Shown one piece after another: positions 1 to 40,649 of a stretch of 64,000 nt of DNA. Source of the DNA: Octopus vulgaris (taxonomy: Eukaryota). The DNA lies in the NCBI GenBank assembly GCA_951406725.2, contig OX597832.1:71424001-71488000 (forward strand), written 5' to 3'. Made by a program: the position numbers and the translations under genes. Numbering within the stretch: the first letter of the stretch is position 1; each line of letters opens with the position of its first letter. Below the pieces are notes generated by a model. That model was given only the letters and a program-made list of their open reading frames with translations, made no database searches and had not been told where the DNA came from.

Positions 1-645
<645 letters not shown>

Positions 646-1124: not shown

Positions 1125-1211
<87 letters not shown>

Positions 1212-1248
1212 GAATGGAGTCGAACGATGATTTAACAAAATTCCTTTA

Positions 1249-1332
1249 TTCTCGACATATGTTTCGAAGACTGCATATTCTCAATTCCGAAGGAATAAAG
1301 GGTGCATTATGCTGCCTTCTCATCAGGAAAAA
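1249..1332 (-). ncRNA. Type I hammerhead ribozyme in pLTR
   Basis: TTTTC-CTGATGA-GAAGGCAGCATA...TATGCAGTCTTC-GAAAC-ATAT-GTC-GAGAA; palindromic stem III ACATATGT. Confidence 0.85.
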
Positions 1333-1907
1333 CAAGGAACTTATGTCAGCATCATGACGAACAAAAACTTTTAGATGACTGCCCACACGGAGTCCATAGT
1401 GATAATGAGTGTTTCTTTAAAATATTCCGTTATAAGCAGTGACGTCAAAATTGGTTGGATGGAGAAGATTCTAAAGAGTTCAAGAGTTTAAAAATGGTTG
1501 GAATGGGAAAGTTCTAAGAATAGGAGGGTGACAGAGTGCAAGTCGTATGTATGGTGATGCGTTGTTGTTTGCTTTTGCTAATGAGATTGAGTGCCTATGT
1601 GTGTGTATGTATATAACTGCATTCGTGTCTATGTGTGTGTGTGTGTGCGTGATTGTGTGTGTGTGGGGATAAATGTCAAATACATCTAGTGGTGAAGTGA
1701 CAGTTTTATGTCTGTGTGTTTGTTTGTGCTTATAATAGAGAGAGGGAGAGAGAGAGAGGGGGAGAGGTAGAGAGACAAAGGTAGAACATACCCCAACGAG
1801 TTTGGTAGTAGTTCTTCATGTAACTGAGTATAAAAAAATTTTTCTATGGCGTTGTTGTAGAAGTAGAACCAATTTATTAAATTCAAGGAGGTTATCTATA
1901 TTATTCA

Positions 1908-2340
1908 TCATTCATATGAGTGGAAGGTGTGCTTCCTCCAGTGCATGCACCTATAGGATTTTTCTACCATTGTGTTTACTAAAGGGAATTTGGCGAAAAG
2001 TATATAGAAAAGTTCGGAATTACAGACGGCACAATATTTTCTGCCCTTATCAAAAGGAAAGGATACAGACAATATGGACCATTCCAGCTTGAAAGTTATA
2101 TTGTTGTCCTTAAGACGCCAAACTAATTTACTTAGTCCTGTACTTTGTTGTTTTCTCTTATCTCGGAAAGTTGAATAATGATTGGAAATTCTATGGGATA
2201 ATTTAGAAGTAGTCACCCCAACATAGAAGAAGACACCGGTACCGGAAGCAACTTTACACTGGTAAATGGAATTTCTAATTTTGGAATTGCTGGATAAGAA
2301 CTTTAATCTGTTAGGGTTTACCTCAGAGACTAAGACGGAG
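1908..2340 (-). pseudogene. GIY-YIG endonuclease domain of PLE
   Basis: NSIYQCKV..FYVGVT..RISNH..F..STGLSKLVW.LKD..W.IL..CAVCNSE..VN..E..RCMH. Confidence 0.85.
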
Positions 2341-2711
2341 TTTTTATTGTTATGATTGTTGTTAATATTATTGCTAGCACTGACCCCTATACTATTTCTA
2401 TTATTGTTATTATTATTAATTGTACTATCGCCGGCAATATCCCTGACTATAGAAATGATGCCGTTGTTATCATCAATACTATCATTGTTATTGGAAATGC
2501 TGTCGTTGTTACCACTAACACTTCCACTGTTAATAATCTGACTAATATTATTATTAATATTACCATTGTTAATGCCAACGCTGTTATGAATGTTGCTATT
2601 ATCAATATTATTTCTATTATTATTATTGTATGTTTGGTTGGAATTGGTAATAATAGTGTTGTAACTACCGGGGGTGAAGAATCCTTGTTTAGCAGCTTGT
2701 TATTATGGGAT

Positions 2712-3040
2712 GTGTCTTCTTCTATGTTGGGGTGACTACTTCTAAATTATCCCATAGAATTTCCAATCATTATTCAACTTTCCGAGATAAGAGAAAACAA
2801 CAAAGTACAGGACTAAGTAAATTAGTTTGGCGTCTTAAGGACAACACTATAACTTTCAAGCTGGAATGGTCCATATTGTCTGTATCCTTTCCTTTTGATA
2901 AGGGCAGAAAATATTGTGCCGTCTGTAATTCCGAACTTTTCTATATACTTTTCGCCAAATTCCCTTTAGTAAACACAATGGTAGAAAAATCCTATAGGTG
3001 CATGCACTGGAGGAAGCACACCTTCCACTCATATGAATGA
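2712..3040 (+). pseudogene. Inverted duplicate of the GIY-YIG C-terminal part
   Basis: ORF 2705-3040 is nearly identical to the 1908-2216 product. Confidence 0.85.
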
Positions 3041-3599
3041 TGAATAATATAGATAACCTCCTTGAATTTAATAAATTGGTTCTACTTCTACAACAACGCC
3101 ATAGAAAAAATTTTTTATACTCAGTTACATGAAGAACTACTACCAAACTCGTTGGGGTATGTTCTACCTTTGTCTCTCTACCTCTCCCCCTCTCTCTCTC
3201 TCTCTCTCCCTCTCTCTATTATAAGCACAAACAAACACACAGACACAAAACTGTCACTTCACCACTAGATGTATTTGACATTTATCCCCACACACACACA
3301 TAGACACAAATGCAGTTATATACATACACACACATAGGCACTCAATCTCATTAGCAAAAGCAAACAACAACGCATCACCATACATACGACTTGCACTCTG
3401 TCACCCTCCTATTCTTAGAACTTTCCCATTCCAACCATTTTTAAACTCTTGAACTCTTTAGAATCTTCTCCATCCAACCAATTTTGACGTCACTGCTTAT
3501 AACGGAATATTTTAAAGAAACACTCATTATCACTATGGACTCCGTGTGGGCAGTCATCTAAAAGTTTTTGTTCGTCATGATGCTGACATAAGTTCCTTG

Positions 3600-3683
3600 T
3601 TTTTCCTGATGAGAAGGCGGCATAATGCACCCTTTATTCCTTTGGAATTGAGAATATGCAGTCTTCAAAACATATGTCGAGAA
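3600..3683 (+). ncRNA. Hammerhead copy with core mutation (GAAA->AAAA)
   Basis: Inverted copy of 1249-1332; reads GTCTTCAAAACATATGTC. Confidence 0.7.
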
Positions 3684-3877
3684 TAAAGGAATTTTGTTAA
3701 ATCGTCGTTCGACTCCATTCTTTCATTTATTTATAGTAAAAAAACACACAAATTTCCACACGAAAGCACGGGATTTCTGCCCTTGTCATGTAGCTTCAAC
3801 CGTGATTTCTGACGTAAATTTGCTACCCGGGTATCGGTTAGCCGAATTATCCATACTAGGATAATTCATTCAACTAC

Positions 3878-3915
<38 letters not shown>

Positions 3916-4205: not shown

Positions 4206-6208
4206 GTAGAAATATGTTACGAAAAGAAAATATAAAATACACGTGGAAATGTAAGGGTAAAATATGAAAAATCAACGAAAATGCATATTGCAAATAGAAA
4301 AAGGCTATTTATGACAGGTAGTGACAAATATATACATTTAGATTAACTGACGTAGTAATACGAGTCATAACGGTCATTATTATGAGATGATTATAAGATG
4401 TTAATAAAGTAAGAGAAGAAAACAAACCAATAGTTTACGCGAAGGCTATTCATCATTTGAACACCGGTTAATATACAGTGTCAGGTCTAATAGTTCCTGA
4501 GAAAAAAGATTATTTGTAAGGGAGGTAAGAAGTTCTGGAATTAGAGATGTGAGTGATGTAGGTAGTGTATAGGGTATAGTGGTTTCAATTGAAGAGTTAG
4601 TGGTGTTCTGTATTGAGTTGTGTGTTCATATTTAGTTGGGGGGAGAAATTTGTTGATGAAAAATGCCTCTTTATTCAACCTTTGTTGCATTGTGGTGTTC
4701 TGTGTGCATTGGTAAAAGGGAAATATTTGGAAATTGGGATTAAGATTCCTGGCACATCTTTCTATGTGTTGACTCACTTTTAACTGTCTGTATTGTGGGT
4801 GACGGATTTGCTCTTCGTGAATGGTGATTCTTTGACGGAGTGAAATTCCTGTTTGTCCAATATAGAGTTTACCACATCCAAGCATGTCATGACATAGATT
4901 ACATTTGCTGAGGCGCAGGTGAAATTTGATTTGATCTTAAATATTTCTCCTTGTTTGAATTGGAATTCTGAACCCTCCAGAAGGTGGGGGCATGTTCCAC
5001 AGTTAGAACGTCCACATTTTGTCACTTTTGGCTCAGTAGTTAGTGGGTAAAGTCTAGTGCCGGTTAATATTCTTTTCAGTGACTTTGGTTGCTTTTTGCT
5101 TTTTATAATTTTATATGAGCTTAAAATTTCATTCATTGTTTTGTCTGCTGTGAGGATGGGAAGGTTTGGGGTGATGATGTTAAAGGCTTCGTTGTTTCTG
5201 GGGTTATGTGTGGAGATGTATGGGAGTATTTTTAAGTCTTGTTTAGTATTTCGGCTAGTTTTCCTTAATCTTTGTATATCTATTTCCTTAGCTCTTTTGA
5301 TGCCTTCATTTACTAATGAGATTGGGTAGTGTCTTCTAGTTAGTGTAGATCTAAGTTCAAGGAGTCTATGTTCACGAGTGTATGTATCGGAAACTATGGT
5401 GCAGATTCTTTTTGCTAGGTTAAAGGGTATGTTGATTTTTATGTGTTTGGGGTGGCAGGAGTTAAATAATAGGTATTGTTTAGAATCTGTGGGTTTATAA
5501 AAGATGTCTGTTTCTATGTGGTTGTTAACTATTCTAATCAAGATGTCTAGAAAAGGTAGTTGCTTACTGTTGTGTTCCATAGTGAATTGTATATTGCTGT
5601 GTATGTTGTTGAGCATTCTTTTGAAATCAAGTTGATCCATGCTATCTTGCCAAAGTATGAAGCAATCATCTAAATATCTCTTCCAGTTCTCATTTAAGTA
5701 GCAATTGAAAGAGGCGCCATATTTTTCTAGTGATGATTGGTATAACTTAAGTTCGTGGTAACCCATTACGAGGTTTGCAATCACTGGAGCAGCTCTGGTC
5801 CCCATTGCAATTCTGCATTTCTGTCGATAGTAAGTAGTATCAAACAAGAAATGATTGTTCAACAGGACTAATTTCAGTGCTTCAATTATAAAATTGTGGT
5901 TAATTCGTCCTGGGATCTCTTCTGGGTATTTTTCTAGCCAAAATGTGATTGCTTCTATACCATAGTCGTGTGGGATATTAGTGTATAGATTCACCACATC
6001 GAAAGACACCAGTAGAGTTCCGTCCTTTACTGTCTTCGGGAGGTGGTTCAGCATGTCTAGGTCATCCCTGATATAGCTTTTCACATATTTTAAAAGAGGT
6101 TTGAGTAATATGTCAAGGAAGTTAATCAAACGGTGGGTTTCGCAAGAAGGGCCAGCTATGATGGGTCTGAGTTTGAGGTCAGTAGGTGGAGGGACATTAA
6201 TGCATAGG

Positions 6209-6210
<2 letters not shown>
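4206..6210 (-). mobile_element. Penelope-like element (Neptune-type), 5'-truncated, in (TA)n
   Basis: PLE RT followed by a Cys-rich linker and GIY-YIG; TA runs at both ends. Confidence 0.9.
4541..6200 (-). pseudogene. PLE reverse transcriptase + GIY-YIG endonuclease (one frameshift near 4885)
   Basis: RPIIAG, SFDVVNLYTNIPH, AMGTRAAP, RYLDDCF, PFLDI, YKPTD..SCHP, CGRSNCGTC, NVIY..C..C..YIGQTG..R...H..H..E..FI. Confidence 0.92.
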
Positions 6211-6254
<44 letters not shown>

Positions 6255-6267
6255 CATTTATGCACAT

Positions 6268-6450
6268 ATCATCATCACCATCATTATCTAATATTCAATT
6301 GATGTGGATTGAATGGTTTGATAGGAGCTGACAAGTCAGAAGACTGTATCAAGCTCTACTGTTTACTTTAGCATGGTCTCTACAGTCGGATGCCCTTCCT
6401 TATACAAACCACTTTACGGAGTGTACTGTGTGCTTTTTATGTGTATCAGC
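6268..6450 (-). mobile_element. RTE 3' tail fragment
   Basis: (CAT)n then GGATGCCCTTCCT..AACCACT..GAGTGTA..GTGCTTTTTA. Confidence 0.6.
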
Positions 6451-9935: not shown

Positions 9936-10268
9936 TTCATACAATGAGTTTCCTTACATTTTCCATCAACTACTTCCATTTGCAAAGCACTGGTGCCTAA
10001 TTCTACAGTAGAAGACTGCTGCCTATGTTGCCATACAAAGGAAGGGAAACTTAAACTACATGGTTACACAGCAAACTTTGTATTCAAATAATCATGCCTA
10101 CACCTATATATATAAACAACTTATAAATAAGGGCAAACGAAAAAAATTTCTAATGCCAAATATGCCGAAAATTGGACATATTGTCCATTTACCATATAAT
10201 ATTTTTCCCAGTACGCACGCTACTTGAAAAAAATGTCGACAGAAATCTCTAAAAAATTCCATTATTAC

Positions 10269-10328
10269 CATATTGGACCGATTTCAGGGTCAGTTCAAAA
10301 AGAACCCTCCCTTCGTCAGTGATACATG
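10269..10328 (-). ncRNA. Hammerhead-like motif (imperfect stem I)
   Basis: CTGACGA-AGGG..GTTC/GAAC..CCCT-GAAA-TCG-GTC; two mismatches at the base of stem I. Confidence 0.55.
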
Positions 10329-10788
10329 TGGCAAAGAAGTAAATGAGATACTTACTCATACCCATGGAAGAAGCAAACACTAAGTCATGAGCCCAACTAA
10401 GTACCCCAAATAAATCCAAAATAGAAATACTCCAGCCCATTCAAGACACGTGCGATTTGAACTGAGACACTCACAGAGTGGGAGAGTCCGGAAGTGAACA
10501 CTATTAAATTTATATCTAATGTAGGATAAAATTTTTTTGAAAAAAATTTTATCCTACTTTAGATAAAAAATTTTTCGAAAAAATTTTATCCTACATTAGA
10601 TATAAATTTAATAGTGTTCACTTCCGGACTCTCCCACTCTGTGAGTGCCTCAGTTCAAATCGCACGTGTCTTGAATGGGCTGGAGTATTTCTATTTTGGA
10701 TTTATTTGGGGTACTTAGTTGTGCTCATGACTTAGTGTTTGCTTCATCCATGGGTATGAGTAAGTATCTCATTTACTTCTTTGCCACA

Positions 10789-10847
10789 TGTATCACTGAC
10801 GAAAGGAGGGTTCTATTTGAACTAACCCTGAAATCGGTCCAATATGG
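10789..10847 (+). ncRNA. Hammerhead-like motif, inverted copy
   Basis: CTGACGAAAGGAGGGTTCTATTTGAACTAACCCTGAAATCGGTC. Confidence 0.5.
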
Positions 10848-12779
10848 TAATAATGGAATTTTTTAGAGATTTCTGTCGACATTTTTTCGAGTAGCGTGCG
10901 TACTGGGAAAAAAATTATATGGTAAATGGACAATATGTCCAATTTTCGGCATATTTGGCATTAGAAATTTTTTCGTTTGCCCTTATTTATAAGTTGTTTA
11001 TAATTTAACCTTTAAAGGTATTTTTTAATATGCTGGCCATTGATAAAATTTTTTTCGAAAAAATTTTATCCTACATTAGATATATATATATAAACATATA
11101 TGTAAAAGCATTGCAGTGTCTTAGTAAATCACTGCAAATTTATTTGCATGAGTTAATAATCAGAATGTTCAGGTATTGGGATCATTTTAAGTCATTGGTT
11201 TATATACTTCAATTTCTTTTTTTTTTTTTTTTTTTCTTTTGGTACAAGTTGGTCTTAACTAATATAGAGATTATAAATTATTTTGAAACCATCTTAGTCA
11301 TATCAATAATTCGAGTTTTGAATATTGTTTTCTTTGATGATTGTGAATTTCTTGTCATGTGTTTGTGAAGATATGATGAAAGGTTAAGGTAGGATAGCGA
11401 TCATATTTGATGGCCTAGGCTATACTTTTGTAAAATAAATGACCACTAAAATTATGTTTTAATTCCTCCATTTATCTGTATAACTTTATGTTATTACCAG
11501 CAATTATAAGCAATTCAGTGCATCCACATTAAATATAAACATACTGCAGGTGTTTGTTCACTAATAAATGGCAGCACACATTTTGTAAACATACATACCG
11601 TTTTGAGCAAGTTTTGAGCCTACATTGAGTGCATTGGATGCAAGGAGATTTTTTAAGCCACTTTTGGGTAAAAAAAAAAAGGTGAGTCTTATAGGCCATC
11701 AAATATGGTATTTAGTACAGATATCACACTTTATATATCAACATTATCATAAATTGACACTTATTCCTTTTTCACAGTTGGATCTTAAATTAGAAAGCAT
11801 AGCAGAGGTAAATCATATTATAATCACACTATCATACAAAATGGTGTCACACTGCAAGATGGTATACAATATAGTATTACAGGTGTAAAACACCATGCAG
11901 TATGGTGTCACACACACCATGAGACCACTTCTTGTTTGTGAAATAATTTTCATTTCTCTACTTTTCAGTAAAAGATGATAAATCTTGATGCATTAGTTAT
12001 GCTTGTCTATCGCTCATATTCGGAGGTGACATATCTAACTTATAATCTCTCTAATGCATTAGATAAATACACTTTATGACATTCTGTGATACAACCAGGA
12101 AGAAATTCACTTTTAATTTTTCTAAATAAAAATCAAGAGAAAAGAATAGGAAATTGTTTCTCTGGCTACTCATTCTACCTATTAACTTTCATATAAAGAG
12201 ACAAAGTGAGTAAGAAGGCATTAATATAAGTGTGAAATAGATAATTAAGATCCAACTGCCTAATCAGGGTAAAGTATTCCAGCAGATCAAAAGTTGGCTA
12301 TAAGATATTCATAGCTAGGGTGAGTAAGAAAGAGACAAAGGGTGGACAAGCAACTGAGAATGGCAGGAGTACATTTATGTGAGTTGTTGCATGAACATAT
12401 TCATGTTGCAAGATTAGGGTGGATATTCACAGCTGTTCCAGAGATTTGGTGATTGGTAAATGCTGTAATGCTTATTATGCTAAAAGGTATATATAATGAA
12501 GTAATAATTTTGCACAGCAGGTGAGCAAAAATATTATCAACCATGCTTCATGTGAGTTGATAATATTTTTACTTCTTTGCTGTGTATGATTATTGTTACT
12601 CTTTTTCGATCCTCTGTCTCTATTCTCTCTTATATACTTTTAGTGTCATGGGGGTACACCCTCACCATCTCTTTCCAGCTGGAGAAGACATGTATTTTTT
12701 CTTCAATCAAGGCACCTGTTCTTGATTTTCTATTATTACCTTAAAGCCACTTCTTTCAATGCTACACTTCCACTCAGCT

Positions 12780-33234: not shown

Positions 33235-34273
33235 TTGGTTTGGCAACTAAGTTCCCGCCATTTTTTCATATTTTAATTTTTTTAATAGGTTTAATAAAAA
33301 ATAACAACTAATTAATTAATAATGTATTCACCCTTGTTGTTTACAACTTCTTTCCAACGTTCAACAAAATTTTCAATACCTCATTGGTACAAATCACCCG
33401 ATTTCAACTCGAAAAATTGATCCAACCAAGCTCTCAATTCTGCATCAGTATTGAACGAAACTCTGCACATAGCATTTGAAAGAGACCAAAAGAGGTGGAA
33501 ATCCATTGGTGCTAAATCTGGAGAGTACAGCAGGTGTGGCAGCACTTCCCAGCCATGTGTTCGAATGGCTTCCTTGGTCATATTGGCGATATGAGGGTGA
33601 GCGTTGTCATGCAGCAGAAGAACTCCATGCTGCTGATTAGGTCTTTTCTCTTGAATAGCTGTGTTGAGTCATTCCATTTGTTGAACATAGAGTTCTATGT
33701 TGACCGTTTGGTTCCATTCAAGCAATTCGTAATGGGTAATCCCTTCTCAGTCCCACCATATGCACATCTTTGTTTCGCGCACGGTGTCGCTCATTTACCA
33801 TGGCTAAGCCATTCCTTATGCTGCTTCATATTGATGTACAGGCACCATTTTTGTTTGCCAGTAATGATTCGGTAAAGAAATCATTACTTGTGTCCATGAG
33901 TTGAGCGGTGACAAGCAAGCAAACCAGCTGAGATTGTGGCTCATTGATTTTTATTGTTGTCACTTAAAACATGCAGTACCCATGCTCCATACTTCTGAAC
34001 TTTTCCCATCGAGTGAAGATGCTTCTCTATAGCAGTGTGGGAGCATTCCATTTTCTCTGCTAGTTCCCTTGTCATTTGACGAGAATTTTTGTGCAAAAGT
34101 TGGTTTAATCACTCTTCATCAAACTCAACTGGATGGTCAGAACAAGGTGCATCTTTCAGGTCAAAATTTCCATTTTTGAACTTGGCATATCAATCACAAA
34201 TGGTTCTTTCAGCAAGGCACCTTTTCCATACACAGCGCAAATTTCGTGAGCAGCTTTTGCAGCCTTAGAACCT
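33235..34273 (-). mobile_element. Mariner transposon, 5'-truncated
   Basis: TA-TTGGTTTGGCAACTAAGTT terminus; HDNA, WEVLPH..YSPDLAPMDFHLF. Confidence 0.88.
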
Positions 34274-34770
34274 TATATACCCATTCCTCTCTTCCTCTCA
34301 GTCCACCTCCCTCTGTTTACTCTCATGCACTTATACATATCTCAGCAGTCTCTCTCAGCTGTCAACCCACTTTCTCTCTTGAAATTCCACCTTTGTCACC
34401 CTATTAGAATATTTAACTGGGCCATATTCCTCTGTTAATATTTGCTCCTATCTCCTGTTCTCACTATCTCAACTTCCCTTAATTGTATTGCCTCTCCTCT
34501 TTTTAGCGACTAAAACTTTTTTTTTTTAACATTACAATATCTAGAATAATAAATACATAAAAGTATAAAGAAATATATAAATATATAGATATATAAAAAA
34601 ATATAAAAATACATATATATAGGAAACATATAAATAAATAATATATAATATATAAGGTAAGATAAAGTTCATCGTTTAGAAATTTTTCGATTAAAAATTA
34701 CTTTTCAAGATAAGGGAAATCTATTGTTAAAAGCCAGTGTCCAAGCAAAAAAGAAGAAACCATATTTACA

Positions 34771-34852
34771 TTCCTTGTGGCCATTTCAGGGGTTCTTCAC
34801 CGTATTTAATGCACGAAGGTGCATCACGATAATTACTCCTTCGTCAGGGGAA
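34771..34852 (-). ncRNA. Hammerhead-like motif in left arm
   Basis: TTCCC-CTGACGA-AGGAGT...ACCCCT-GAAA-TGGCCA-CA-AGGAA (U16.1 appears as C). Confidence 0.55.
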
Positions 34853-34892
34853 AAATAAAGAAACACACATCACGTACCAGGGCGAGACCTCA

Positions 34893-37800
34893 ATTTCTTT
34901 ATTACCCACAGGGGGCCAAATGTAGAATGATACAGAACAACTGATGGGATCAGTGAAATGATATGGGTTTACATATAATATGACTTTAAAAATTTAATAC
35001 AATATATAAAAATCGAATGTAATAAACAAAACAACAAACAATACAAACGAAGCGATGATCAGGCCACGCTCCGACCCCACAAGCCCCGATCTACCACTGG
35101 TACCTTTTTTTTGTTTTCTTTTTTTCCGGTCTATTCACACAGTTCCTTGCACGCCCAACACTCGTGCAACATGTTTCCATCTCTTTTGGAACGTACACTC
35201 CGACAGACACTTCTTCTCCAGCCACAGTTTCCTTTTCAAATGAAAAGAAAAAAAGATCGGAAATTGTGACCAGAGATAAAGCTGCCTGTCTTAATTCCTT
35301 TTATCCTAGTCTTCCATACTGCCTTTTTTGCTATTGCTACAACCGTGAGAAAGCAATTCTTACCTTCGTTCATTAGAACTCCCGGTGGGTCAATTTTTAT
35401 AATTGACTCAGTCGACAGCTGTACTCTTTCTTCGCCGGACAACTGGTGTTCAGCATAAGCCCACATTTCAGTTATCTCCGGACACTGAAAAATAGCGTGA
35501 GGGACGGTTTCTCTGTCCACCCCGCATCTTGGACAGGTTGGCGACTGACGTCCACCATGTCTTGCGAGCTTATCCCGAATGGGCAAGGCACCTCTGTAGC
35601 ATTGCCAGGTTAAGGACTTTGGGAAATTGTCCAACGTTCTCAACCCAAATGTACGGTGAAACAGGCTGTCCAGTTGAATAAATCCAAGACCTAGAGTCGA
35701 TCCCATGCCATCGTCGCATTCAGACTCTACCAACCCACTATATAAAATCCGTGTGGAACCCCAGCTGCTGGCATTGCCCGAGTGTCGGAATTGTAAGAGG
35801 GCCTTACAGCACTCTTTATGCCACTCCCTCGACCTCGGTCTACGAGCTTCCTCTTCACAAAAACTTTTGAATTCAGGGAACATTTGTCTGGCCAGCGGAG
35901 ACCACACCCGTTCACTATCCAGGAGAGTCCAGAGGTGCCTCAACCTCAACGCATGTCTGCACATCATTAACCAAGGCATCCCTAAACCTCCCTTTAAAGG
36001 CTTTTGGCAACAGACAGAGCGTTTTACAAGTGGCGACTTGCTCTTTCACGAAAAGCGAAAGAGCTGTCTCTCCAACCTGATCAACCACGAATCCGGACAG
36101 GGCACGACGGTCAGGCAGTAGGTAATGACCGATGCGATAAACACATTGGTCACCTCTGCCTTCCCTTTCAGGGATAGCCACCGCCAAGACCAGGTCTTGA
36201 CTACTGCAACCACCCTGCTCAATACCTCCACCCAGTTCTTCTCTATCTGGAGGCCTGGTCCAAACCAAACTCCCAGCAACTTAACCGGTTCCTCCATCCA
36301 GCGCCCAACAACGCTGTCTGAAGGCATCGACTTGCCAACCCAGATGCCGAGCTTCAAGCCGACCGACTTTTCCCGGTTAATCTTTGCTCCTGTCACTTCC
36401 TCGTAAGCCTCAATAGTCTTACCCACTTCACGTAGGCGTGCTATTGAGGTTACACTGATAGTGATATCATCCACGTAAGCTGTAACAAACTCCTCTAGTC
36501 CTGGTTCTCTCAGGATGCCACTCAACCTTCACAGTAATGGCTCGAGAGCCATCACATACAAAAGTGGTGAGAGCGGACATCCTTGATGAACCGAGCGTTT
36601 GATGCAGAACGGCTTCGAAAGGAAACCGTTCACCCGAACTATCGAGTCAATGTTGTGGTACAAAGAGATAAACCACCTGAGGAAGCCAAGGCGCAGGCCG
36701 AACTGCGCAAGCACAGTCGCCAGGTATCGATGGTCAACCCTATCAAAAGCTTTAGACTGGTCCAAATGTACCAATGCCCCACCTTTGCCAGATTTATTAC
36801 CAACCCTCTCTATGGTATAGCGAATGAGATGGAGGGTATCCTGAATGGTTCTGCCTGGGGTGGCACATCTGTGCCTCCCCGACTATACCATTCGTGACAC
36901 GCGCCAACCTTTTAGCTAAAACCTTGGCAAAAATCTTCACTTCTGTGTTTAACAGTGATGGGCCTGAAATTTTCTTGAACGTCCCCCTTGTCTGGGTCCT
37001 TTCTGACCAACGTCACTACTCCCCGGCGCACAGATCTGGGGATAAACCCATTCTGTTGCCATTTCGCGTACACGTCAGCCAGTAGTTGCCCGAACAAGTC
37101 TGGCATACATTTATACAACTCGTACGGAAGACCATCAAGTCCCGGCGACTTACCTGCTTTTCAGTTGGCCAAAGCCTCTATCACCTCCTCAGGCGTGATT
37201 GGCCCTTCGCAACACCCGCATCCGACCCCGGGAGGCACGGCAGCCCGGCAAGAAAGTCCTCGAGGGCTCTTTCACTACCAGGACCGCCGTCACCCCCGAA
37301 CAGCTGGGCGAAGTACTCCCGAAAGACCTCACACATTTTCTCGGGTTCGTTTACCAAAACACCATTTTGATTCGTCAAAGACCGAATAGAGGAACTATTT
37401 CCTTGCCGAGCTTCCACCACTCGGGCCCATCCAGTGGCCTTGATTCCTTCATTTCCCATTGCACGTAACTTAGCTCTGGCAATGCTTCCCATGTGTTGGG
37501 CTTCAAGGTGCTGGTTTAACTCCAGTCTTTTCACCCTCGCTTGATCCGCATTACCAGTCCTCCAGGCTTCTTCTAGTTCCTTAACTAGACCATCTCCTAT
37601 TCTACGTCCCTTCTTAGCTAACCTTATGCTAAACCTAATAGACTCATATTTGATGGCTCTTTTTAGGGCTTACTACCATTTGTTATTGGTGATGGTACCT
37701 GTTAATGCCCTCTGTATTAACATCTTGATCCGCTTTCTGTACTCCTCAATCGCCAAAAGGGACGTATTGAGTTTCCAGTAGCCAGATCCCTGTCCATTCA

Positions 37801-38725
37801 ACTTATCTACCGTCAGTTTACAGGTAACCATCTTGTGGTCACTGTAGCTGACTAGAAAAAACTGTGGACACTTTAATATGGATTTTCTAATTAAAATCCT
37901 ATCTATATATGTTCTAACAGACCCGTCACCATTTGACCACGTCCACTGTGGTGTGTTCGTGTGCTCCAACCTATATGGATCTGCTAGCTGAAAATGACTT
38001 AGTAGATCTCGTAATAGAGTTACATTTTCTATTCATGTTTGGGTTCGAGCCAACACAATCTGTGTGTGCTGCACATATTGTGTTAAAGTCTCCTAACAGT
38101 ACTAGCGAATGCAACATGGCTAGGAATTTTCCCAGGTCACAAAAATAATCAGTTTGCGGGCAAGTAATGTTTGGTGCTTAAATAGCAACCAGCCTGATTG
38201 TCTTGCCACAACTGAATGTCAGGTCGAGAACAACCAACCTGCCTTCTGGGTCAGAAAAAACCAACTTTTTCTCGGCTACCCGGTTTCTTTTTAGTAGGAC
38301 CAACACTCCACCCTCACCTCCCACCCGACTCAGAAAAACGTATTTCTTGTAGCCGGTCAGGAGGGGGAGCAGATCTCTTGGCCCCTTCACCCGGGTTTCT
38401 GTTGCAACAATTACATCTAAATTTCTCGACCTGATGTCATTTAGAAAGCGTCCTTGCTTCCAGCTTGACATCAGACCATGAACATTTAAACAACCAATAT
38501 GAATAGACATGTCTTACTTTTTAAATCGGGGCATCTTGTAGAGGGGTGTCCTCCACCTTTTCTTGACTTAGGGTCGGAGTTGGTAGGCCTTCAAACATGG
38601 TTGGATGGAAATCCAGTCTCCATGTTGATACTGCTTTCCTATATGTATTAGACAACATATTGTATGTCTTATCGTCCATTTCATAGAATTCATAATTTAC
38701 GTATTTTTCAGACAGTTCCATTATT
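34893..38725 (-). mobile_element. Tx1/L1-like LINE (ORF1 C-terminus 38521-38725, ORF2 ~35130-38510 frameshifted)
   Basis: APE (CLNVHGL, ATETR, LLGDFN, IDRI, SDHK, YWKLN), RT (DQSKAFDRVDH, QGCPLSPLLY, YVDD), C-terminal CPRC..H....C. Confidence 0.92.
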
Positions 38726-38990
38726 GGAAAAAAAAGAAAACAAAATAAGGTACCAGCGGTAGATCGGGGCTTGTGGGGTCGGAGCGTGGCCTGATCATCG
38801 CTTCGTTTGTATTGTTTGTTGTTTTGTTTATTACATTCGATTTTTATATATTGTATTAAATTTTTAAAGTCATATTATATGTAAACCCATATCATTTCAC
38901 TGATCCCATCAGTTGTTCTGTATCATTCTACATTTGGCCCCCTGTGGGTAATAAAGAAATTGAGGTCTCGCCCTGTGTGTTTCTTTATTT

Positions 38991-39072
38991 TTCCCCTGAC
39001 GAAGGAGTAATTATTGTGATGCACCTTCGTGCATTAAATACGGTGAGGAACCCCTGAAATGACCATAAGGAA
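38991..39072 (+). ncRNA. Hammerhead-like motif in right arm
   Basis: TTCCC-CTGACGA-AGGAGT...ACCCCT-GAAA-TGACCA-TA-AGGAA; two-arm consensus stem III ATGGCCAT is palindromic. Confidence 0.6.
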
Positions 39073-39554
39073 TGTAAATATGGTTTCTTTTTTGCTTGGA
39101 CATTGGCTTTTAACAATAGGTTTCCCTTATCTTGAAAAGTAATTTTTAATCGAAAAAATTTCTAAACGATGAACTTTTATCTTACCTTATATATTATATA
39201 TTATTTATTTATATGCTTCCTATATATATGTATTTTTATATTTTTTTATATATCTATATATTTATATATTTCTTTATATTTTTATGTATTTATTATTCTA
39301 GATGTTGTAATGTTAAAAAAAATTTTTTTTTTAGTCACTAAATTATTAACCATTAATTTTTAACCGCGATGGACTGTATTCACACATTTTTCTTATATGC
39401 TTGTATTGATGAGTTGTGCTTCATCTTCCGTGATTTTATGCATGTATATTCTATATGAAAGAAAAAGCATTATGTGATTAAATGTTCGAGATATGAAATG
39501 TTACGTGGATGACCTTATATTTGTTTGTTCTGCAACCATAGTTTAATATATCTA

Positions 39555-39660
<106 letters not shown>

Positions 39661-40444
39661 ACACACATGTATATCGTTGATTAAAATTAGCCTCATTGCA
39701 ATTAACCATGCACATATGATGAAAAAAAATATTTTAAAGGTTACATCTTTGAAATGAATTTCATTTGCTTTCATTCATTCACTCCTGATTGAATTCTCTG
39801 AAATATTTACTGGGTAGGTATGTAGAGGGAATGGCATAATTTCATTTTTTTTTTGCTTTGTTTTGTTTATATAATTTCTTCTTAGAATCATAAGGCTTGT
39901 GTGTATATGTGTACATATATACACACAGATAAATATGTATAAATTTGAGTGTGTATGTGCATATGTTTGTCTATGTGTATGTGTGAGTGTTTTGTATGTG
40001 TACACACATACACACACACATATATATATATAGTACCAACAATAAAAAAAATCAATATGAGGGGGAGTGGAGCAGAGGGCAGGCTGTTCAGGAAACCTAA
40101 CATTAAAATCTCTAAGCTAAATGAAGAAAATAATTACCACCGCATCTATCAATTTTCTTTTTGTTCAATAAAATGACTTCGTAAACATTAATTACAGCAA
40201 TATAGAAGCTTCTATTGATTAATTATCCTATAATTTATGTTACTCTGTTTTCTCGATATATTTGTGTCAGTTGCTTTATCTTTCATTGTATTTTGCACTT
40301 TCACATACTCAGGTACGCATACATGCACACAGACACATGCACACATGCACACAGTGCTAGGTAGATAGGTAGATAGGTGTATACATACATAAGGTAAGTA
40401 ATAGAATTATATATGCTTTAATTAAATACATATGTATATACACA

Positions 40445-40590
40445 TTCGGAGTAGTTTGTGTCAGGAATGGCATCCAGCTGTAGAAACACTGCCAGATCAG
40501 ATTGGGGCCTGGTGCAGCCTCCTGGCTTCCCAGACCTCAGTCAAACCATCCAGCATGGAAAACGGACATTAAACGATGATGATGATAATG
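40445..40590 (+). mobile_element. RTE 3' tail
   Basis: GGGCATCCAGCTGTAGAAAC..AGCATGGAAAACGGACATTAAAC(GAT)n. Confidence 0.8.
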
Positions 40591-40649
40591 ACACTATATA
40601 AACGTGGATGTGTAATATATAAACAATATAAGTATATATATTATATTAT

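What the first reader, a model, noticed from the sequence alone, without database searches (positions are those of the whole stretch)
34502..39342. Tx1/L1-like LINE packaged in Penelope-style inverted, hammerhead-bearing termini
Seen: a 5'-truncated Tx1-like LINE (APE-RT-Zn) is bracketed by ~620 bp inverted repeats. Each arm has ~235 bp of apparent LINE 3' UTR (ending ..CCCCTGTGGGTAATAAAGAAAT) plus ~385 bp carrying CTGACGA..GAAA with a palindromic stem III. Established: L1/Tx1 elements do not make such duplicated inverted 3' ends, whereas a long copy preceded by an inverted 5'-truncated 3' copy with an HHR is the PLE signature, as at 1207-3879. Inference: a LINE inserted upstream of a PLE pLTR and the chimeric RNA was retroposed in trans by PLE machinery. 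Alternatively, this Tx1 family has acquired an HHR 3' module.
Basis: partly seen in the sequence, partly recalled or inferred. Interest (0 to 1): 0.85.

Follow-up and report, generated by a model that had tools for sequence, protein, structure and literature searches.

The report
Dead LINE inside Penelope head-to-head insertion
A broken LINE retrotransposon is fused to the ribozyme-bearing tail of a Penelope-like element and is present here as a long copy plus an inverted short copy, likely because the Penelope enzyme re-copied the hybrid RNA, which would be a rare case of one class of jumping gene carrying another as a passenger.

Summary
The inverted repeat is real: 94.6% over 628 columns, and contigs span the inner junction in 4 of 4 public runs laid. 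The hammerhead module is the 3' end of a Hydra-type Penelope-like element (PLE) whose RT and GIY-YIG ORF lie upstream in other copies. The right arm runs past 39342 to 39551, the commonest 3' end of that PLE, and abuts a microsatellite. The LINE is an abundant Tx1-like family; 27 of 29 other copies examined end in a SINE target, none in the module. The LINE/PLE junction occurs at only two loci in the genome, so the family has not acquired a hammerhead. Head-to-head arms occur in 15 of 39 PLE loci and 0 of 23 Tx1 copies. Best reading (0.7): a Tx1 inserted about 240 nt after the PLE stop codon, and PLE machinery later copied the hybrid RNA twice, head to head. The donor, a target duplication and a canonical left end are missing, so DNA-level fold-back stays open (0.2). 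A dead one-off variant of known PLE trans-mobilisation.

The parts
34269..34493 (.). Left flank: fragment of an old repeat; its relatives continue with sequence that is not found on the right side of the element
   Evidence: 71-74% identity to L093-L096
34502..34891 (-). Left arm, PLE 3' UTR/pLTR part; stops about 210 bp short of the family's commonest end
34776..34847 (-). Hammerhead motif, left copy; U16.1 changed to C and G1.1 to A, predicted impaired
34892..35134 (-). Tx1-like 3' UTR with the exact family 3' end and no poly(A); joined to the PLE at 34892/34891
35135..38510 (-). Tx1-like ORF2 (APE, RT, zf-RVT), broken by stops and frameshifts into at least 9 pieces
   Evidence: near-intact family copy L142 is closest to L1 ORF2p among solved structures
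38524..38725 (-). 3' end of Tx1 ORF1; 5' truncation point at 38725
38725..38726 (.). Head-to-head junction: blunt, no microhomology, no added bases
   Evidence: spanned by a contig in 4 of 4 runs
38726..38961 (+). Right arm, inverted copy of the Tx1 3' UTR, starting about 7 nt after the ORF2 stop
38962..39551 (+). Right arm, PLE 3' UTR/pLTR running to the family's commonest 3' end
   Evidence: 14 of 27 other loci end at the same place
38996..39067 (+). Hammerhead motif, right copy; stem III palindrome broken and G1.1 changed to A, predicted impaired
39552..39660 (.). (CTAT)n/(TA)n/(TG)n microsatellite, the usual neighbour of this PLE's 3' end

Best explanation
A Tx1-like LINE is joined at its exact 3' end to the hammerhead-bearing tail of a Hydra-type Penelope-like element, and the PLE enzyme likely reverse-transcribed this hybrid RNA twice and joined the two copies head to head. 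Step 1 (inferred): a Tx1 inserted into the PLE 3' UTR at a site that resembles its usual target. Step 2 (inferred): read-through transcription gave an uncleaved LINE-PLE RNA. Step 3 (inferred): PLE RT started at its normal 3' site beside a TA-rich target and made a long cDNA that stopped in ORF1 and a short one that stopped just after the ORF2 stop; their 5'-truncated ends were joined bluntly. Step 4 (inferred): the outer end of the left arm and some flank were lost at or after insertion. The element is now dead: ORF2 is broken and both ribozymes are mutated (shown).
For: Module is a PLE 3' end: GIY-YIG ORF upstream in L006, L013, L014, L030; RT core, EN and hammerhead together in L220 and L221. 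Right arm ends where 14 of 27 other loci end, before a microsatellite. Head-to-head arms by BLAST in 9 of 27 loci and 8 of 14 loci picked without regard to structure; after merging two segmental duplicates 15 of 39, against 0 of 23 Tx1 copies, Fisher p 4e-4. Five of the 9 PLE junctions are blunt or within 1 nt, like this one. Both arms share 17 rare UTR and 2 rare PLE variants and a junction found at only one other locus, so they come from one template; in 10 of 12 head-to-head loci with measurable overlap, this one included, the partner arm ranks in the top 4 of 15-54 comparisons. An in-place Tx1-like insertion with a 17-nt target duplication and PLE on both sides exists about 13 nt from the same site (L166). 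A second LINE-plus-PLE unit lies between two (TA)n runs with no upstream PLE and no duplication (L178). Precedent: PLE trans-mobilisation of a host gene (PMC3846280); uncleaved RNA is the main PLE substrate in vitro (PMC11167929).
Against: No donor: the junction pattern finds only the two arms and C8:36085278, and C8 is not the donor (0 exclusive shared ORF2 sites in about 930 nt; its PLE part groups with L008). No target duplication; the left end is not a canonical PLE end (4 of 27 other loci also end early); the pre-insertion site cannot be rebuilt. Arm age (18 of 1224) and private ORF2 decay (18 of 933) do not differ (p 0.5), so a delay between LINE insertion and arm formation is not proven, and the shared variants cluster in the inner part of the arms, as gene conversion would also give. 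L178 is weak support: 12 of 21 truncated copies of that LINE family show no duplication by the same test. The PLE loci were chosen by likeness to the module, so frequencies are for that sample.
Confidence: 0.7

Rival explanations
1. DNA-level fold-back in place: the Tx1 inserted into a PLE at this locus, and repair or replication copied the UTR plus PLE tail in inverted orientation as far as the TA repeat, deleting the upstream LINE and PLE parts.
For: Needs no lost donor. Arm age and LINE decay are statistically alike. Inverted duplications at L1 insertion sites are reported (10.1101/2024.12.14.628481). TA repeats could guide rejoining (inference).
Against: The inner junction has no microhomology, whereas the reported L1 inverted duplications show 2-bp homology and small hairpins; here the loop would be 3.6 kb. 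The repeat does not extend into unique flank. 0 of 23 Tx1 copies show it while the PLE does so often.
Confidence: 0.2
2. Two Tx1-primed cDNAs with 3' transduction of the PLE tail met head to head.
For: L1 can give one bridge with two poly(A) ends from two events (10.1101/2024.08.27.596794).
Against: No poly(A); the right end is the PLE's own end; neither flank is the SINE target used by 27 of 29 copies.
Confidence: 0.05
3. PLE RT jumped from PLE RNA onto the 3' end of a Tx1 RNA, making the junction without any prior insertion.
For: Several PLE copies start 13 nt from the junction (L008, L009, L011, L028, L029); neither junction locus keeps upstream PLE.
Against: Both arms carry the identical junction, needing the same jump twice or a prior copy; L166 shows true insertion with target duplication in this region; the site resembles the Tx1 target.
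Confidence: 0.04
4. The Tx1 family has stably acquired a hammerhead 3' module.
For: The junction recurs at a second locus, and a 3' UTR haplotype is confined to the three junction copies.
Against: 0 of 29 other copies carry the module; two loci genome-wide; the two loci have different PLE partners.
Confidence: 0.01

Closest known systems
Penelope trans-mobilisation of an NRPS gene in Adineta vaga (PMC3846280; passages seen)
   Same: Foreign sequence carried 5' of a pLTR in a structure with an inverted pLTR; only pLTR sequence is shared with the PLE.
   Different: The passenger here is a LINE; there is no upstream direct pLTR and no target duplication; the inverted arm itself contains passenger sequence.
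Hydra clade of C-terminal EN+ PLEs (PMC8557442, section 11 read)
   Same: DKT motif, CxCX5C linker, no CCHH, CxxC and CxH motifs, hammerhead, (TA)n targets; long copy preceded by an inverted 5'-truncated copy is described for PLEs in the same paper.
   Different: This locus holds no PLE coding sequence; RWK reads RWR in the one copy where it was seen (L231).
Tx1-clade elements that target other transposons, such as Tx1L in Tx1D and Tx1-Mar in Mariner-N4 (PMC4494074; passages seen)
   Same: Site-specific insertion into another repeat; partner SINE with a similar 3' tail.
   Different: Usual target here is a SINE; a PLE pLTR is an occasional target for at least three Tx1-like families (this one, L166, L178).
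L1 twin priming (10.1101/2024.08.27.596794; passages seen)
   Same: 5'-truncated element with an inversion at the 5' end.
   Different: Twin priming inverts an upstream piece with short junction duplications (median 22 bp); here 600 bp of the 3' end plus downstream sequence is duplicated.

Membership tests
Hydra-clade PLE (source of the module) | DKT in place of DKG; RWK motif | tested here: met
   SDKTG in L224, L225, L228, L231; RWR (not RWK) in L231
Hydra-clade PLE (source of the module) | CxCX5C linker, no CCHH in EN, CxxC and CxH around E and N | tested here: met
   CNCRNPELC, one Cys only between VIY and YIG, CKLC, CIH in L220, L222, L223; Pfam GIY-YIG weak, E 0.003, below cut-off
Hydra-clade PLE (source of the module) | Hammerhead in pLTR and (TA)n insertion | tested here: met
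Hydra-clade PLE (source of the module) | RT phylogeny with named Hydra elements | not tested
   no named reference sequences fetched
Type I minimal hammerhead | CUGANGA, GAAA, palindromic helix III, UH, stem I | tested here: met
   all intact in 17 of 28 other loci; dimer fold predicted for L005 and L013; both window copies fail at least one feature
Type I minimal hammerhead | Rfam match | tested here: not met
   none in window or L005 1400-1700
Type I minimal hammerhead | Self-cleavage | not testable with these tools
   needs in vitro assay
Tx1 clade | ORF2 APE-RT-zinc finger, L1 group; ORF1 with zinc knuckle | tested here: met
   (L1 ORF2p E 2e-64, R2 E 2e-20); CCHC knuckle read by eye from the C8 ORF1
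Tx1 clade | Target-sequence preference | tested here: met
   27 of 29 3' flanks are one SINE site; 12 of 12 5' flanks examined are SINE
Tx1 clade | RT phylogeny with named Tx1 elements | not testable with these tools
   23 homologues returned carry no Tx1 name; filed as Tx1-like
PLE-mobilised passenger insertion | PLE 3' end at the outer termini in head-to-head layout | tested here: inconclusive
   met on the right, left end is short
PLE-mobilised passenger insertion | Target duplication or rebuildable empty site | tested here: not met
   flanks do not rejoin
PLE-mobilised passenger insertion | Donor copy elsewhere | tested here: not met

The most novel reading that the evidence does not exclude
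PLE pLTRs are a recurrent landing site for Tx1-like LINEs in this genome, and PLE machinery repeatedly re-mobilises the resulting LINE-PLE hybrids (window, L178, possibly C8), a cross-class hitch-hiking route in which the rare junction barcodes both arms and shows that PLE inverted repeats are made from one template.
Probability: 0.4. Interest if true: 0.6.

Novelty: new variant of a known kind. Interest (0 to 1): 0.42.

Why it matters
How PLEs form head-to-head repeats is still unexplained (PMC8557442). Here both arms carry a junction that exists at only two loci against 46 empty sites, so the short arm was not drawn at random from family RNA. If PLE-made, it also shows that a whole LINE ORF2 can travel on another class's machinery into sites its own endonuclease would not choose. 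The locus itself is dead and unique, which limits its importance.

Tried and rejected
Assembly artefact: rejected. Tx1 with a stable hammerhead tail: rejected (the four 2-mismatch hits match the control count of 5 and were not inspected). C8 as donor: rejected. Whether window and C8 are two insertions at one base or one ancestor plus conversion is unresolved: they share a unique UTR haplotype but have different PLE partners (tree support weak, bootstrap unsettled), and C8 has no upstream PLE in about 17 kb. Splicing as the cause of the junction: considered, the letters do not give GT..AG (inspection). Monomer folding of the hammerhead region was not significant (z -0.6 to -1.8). Rebuilding the empty site from the left-flank repeat failed. 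No RNA holder listed; not evidence either way. Earlier scan findings: nothing returned. Literature searches for a LINE carried by a PLE listed no such report by title or abstract start; most subscription journals and Repbase are not covered, PMC5850863 was not held, and no supplements were read.
Full report
Observation. The window lies at G000:C19:71424001-71488000 of a 2.8-Gb genome. The arms 34502-35125 and 38729-39342 are 94.6% identical over 628 columns, with 4 substitutions in 236 UTR bases and 14 in 376 module bases. Logan contigs from 4 of 4 runs laid (4 studies, three organism labels) cross the inner junction at 38725 with 40 bases on the short side; two runs list contigs bridging the LINE/module junction by more than 31 bases on each side and one the left end (the table was cut). 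The structure is therefore real. The LINE has all of ORF2, in at least 9 pieces, and about 200 bp of ORF1.

The module. A search with 241 bases found 327 candidates, 40 scored, 30 loci fetched. In L006, L013, L014 and L030 a GIY-YIG ORF lies upstream in the same orientation. Longer copies give an RT with DKT, FDISNYY, ITMGS and YRDD, a CxCX5C linker and an EN without CCHH, the features listed for the Hydra PLE clade (PMC8557442 section 11). The hammerhead has core, palindromic stem III, UH and stem I intact in 17 of 28 other loci and folds as a dimer in the two natural copies tried; both window copies share G1.1 to A and each has one more lesion. Rfam gave nothing. Such minimal, dimer-type motifs are described for PLEs (PMC4209133, passages). 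The right arm ends at 39551, where 14 of 27 other loci end, before a microsatellite; the left arm stops about 210 bp earlier.

The LINE. 1336 candidates, 40 scored, 30 fetched. Of 29 other copies, 27 are followed by one SINE site, 2 by other sequence, none by the module; 12 of 12 long copies have SINE sequence at the 5' side. A near-intact ORF2 (L142) is closest to L1 ORF2p among solved structures. Clade placement by tree was not possible, so it is Tx1-like by architecture and targeting (PMC4494074, passages).

The junction. It occurs three times within one mismatch: both arms and C8:36085278; 46 PLE copies have the site empty. The Tx1 end is joined 229-296 nt after the PLE ORF and about 44 nt before the hammerhead core. 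The C8 copy is a near full-length Tx1 with an internal deletion, followed by the PLE tail, with no inverted arm and no upstream PLE. It shares a unique UTR haplotype with the window but no exclusive ORF2 variants; each has its own neutral decay, 1.9% and 2.5%, and its PLE part is of the L008 type. It is not the donor. Other Tx1-like families also hit this region: L166 holds an ORF1-only element with a 17-nt target duplication and PLE on both sides, and L178 holds 770 bp of a related LINE (65% amino-acid identity) plus PLE tail between two (TA)n runs; that family's target motif matches the PLE site, and 12 of its 21 truncated copies, L178 included, show no duplication.

Who made the inversion. 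Inverted 3' pieces at the 5' truncation occur in 9 of 27 PLE loci and 8 of 14 further loci (L183 is a ninth by inspection; 6 loci fetched because they already showed inverted pairs or tandem copies were left out of the count). Merging L018/L027 and L174/L184 as duplicates gives 15 of 39, against 0 of 23 Tx1 copies (p 4e-4). The window junction is blunt like 5 of the 9. Both arms share 17 rare UTR variants, 9 of them also in C8, and 2 rare PLE variants, so they derive from one template. In 10 of 12 head-to-head loci with measurable overlap the partner arm ranks in the top 4; 6 of 18 tried gave no measurable overlap.

Mechanism. Most likely a Tx1 inserted into a PLE tail, the read-through RNA stayed uncleaved, and PLE RT initiated at its own end and produced two 5'-truncated cDNAs joined head to head (0.7). 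Internal initiation and use of uncleaved RNA are shown for an anole PLE (PMC11167929, parts 1-2 of 4 read); carriage of foreign sequence is shown in Adineta (PMC3846280, passages). The shared G1.1 change may have favoured an uncut RNA, but long copies with intact ribozymes exist, so this is speculation. Against: no donor, no target duplication, a short left end, flanks that do not rejoin, and no significant age gap between arms and LINE decay. DNA-level fold-back (0.2) needs no donor but lacks microhomology, which the reported L1 cases have (10.1101/2024.12.14.628481, passages).

Novelty. Head-to-head PLE insertions, PLE passengers and Tx1 targeting of other repeats are each known. A LINE as PLE passenger did not appear in four searches (listings only), nor in passages of a recent Octopus repeat annotation (PMC13282606) or a retrozyme preprint (10.64898/2026.07.22.740005). 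Verdict: new variant of a known kind, dead, one locus with the full structure; interest 0.42.

Noticed in passing
L032-L060 3' flanks; L070-L088 5' flanks; window 40412-40594 not included: This Tx1-like family inserts at one position of an abundant SINE whose 3' tail resembles the Tx1 3' end; the SINE forms tandem arrays at the same site, as expected for a partner SINE that targets itself.
   Followed up: partly
L139-L148, L150-L152, L154, L156: Young Tx1 copies keep ORF2 at about 92% identity to an older copy but have a different ORF1 (65% or no DNA match), suggesting an ORF1 swap.
   Followed up: no
L070, L071, L075, L080: Four long Tx1 copies share the same variant SINE head at their 5' end; in L071 it differs from the 3' flank, so the head may travel with the LINE.
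   Followed up: no
L166:3190-4875 (G000:C4:98705190-98706875): ORF1-only Tx1-like element with an open zinc-knuckle ORF1 inserted in the PLE tail with a 17-nt target duplication.
   Followed up: partly
L178:246-2108 (G000:C18:49720746-49722608, minus): Second LINE fragment plus PLE tail between two (TA)n runs, no inverted arm.
   Followed up: partly
L215 (G000:C4:149250130-149250700): A third Tx1-like fragment inserted with an 8-nt duplication just upstream of the hammerhead of another PLE-like family, the one at window 10228-10887.
   Followed up: partly
window 238-562, 1197-3735, 10228-10887: Three more head-to-head repeats with hammerhead-like motifs (404 minus; 1326 minus; 10319 minus and 10796 plus), and a Penelope-type RT/GIY-YIG ORF at 4541-6294.
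   Followed up: no
L008, L009, L011, L028, L029: Five of 27 PLE copies begin at the same base, 13 nt upstream of the Tx1 junction, three of them directly after (TA)n; a possible pLTR boundary or solo-pLTR subfamily.
   Followed up: no
L064:3400-6200 (G000:C8:36079400-36082200): Cluster of nested Tx1-like fragments, including a short element with the same AATAAAGAAAT tail lying head to head with the C8 copy.
   Followed up: partly
L069, L072, L080, L088, L089, C8: Large internal deletions are common in older Tx1 copies.
   Followed up: no
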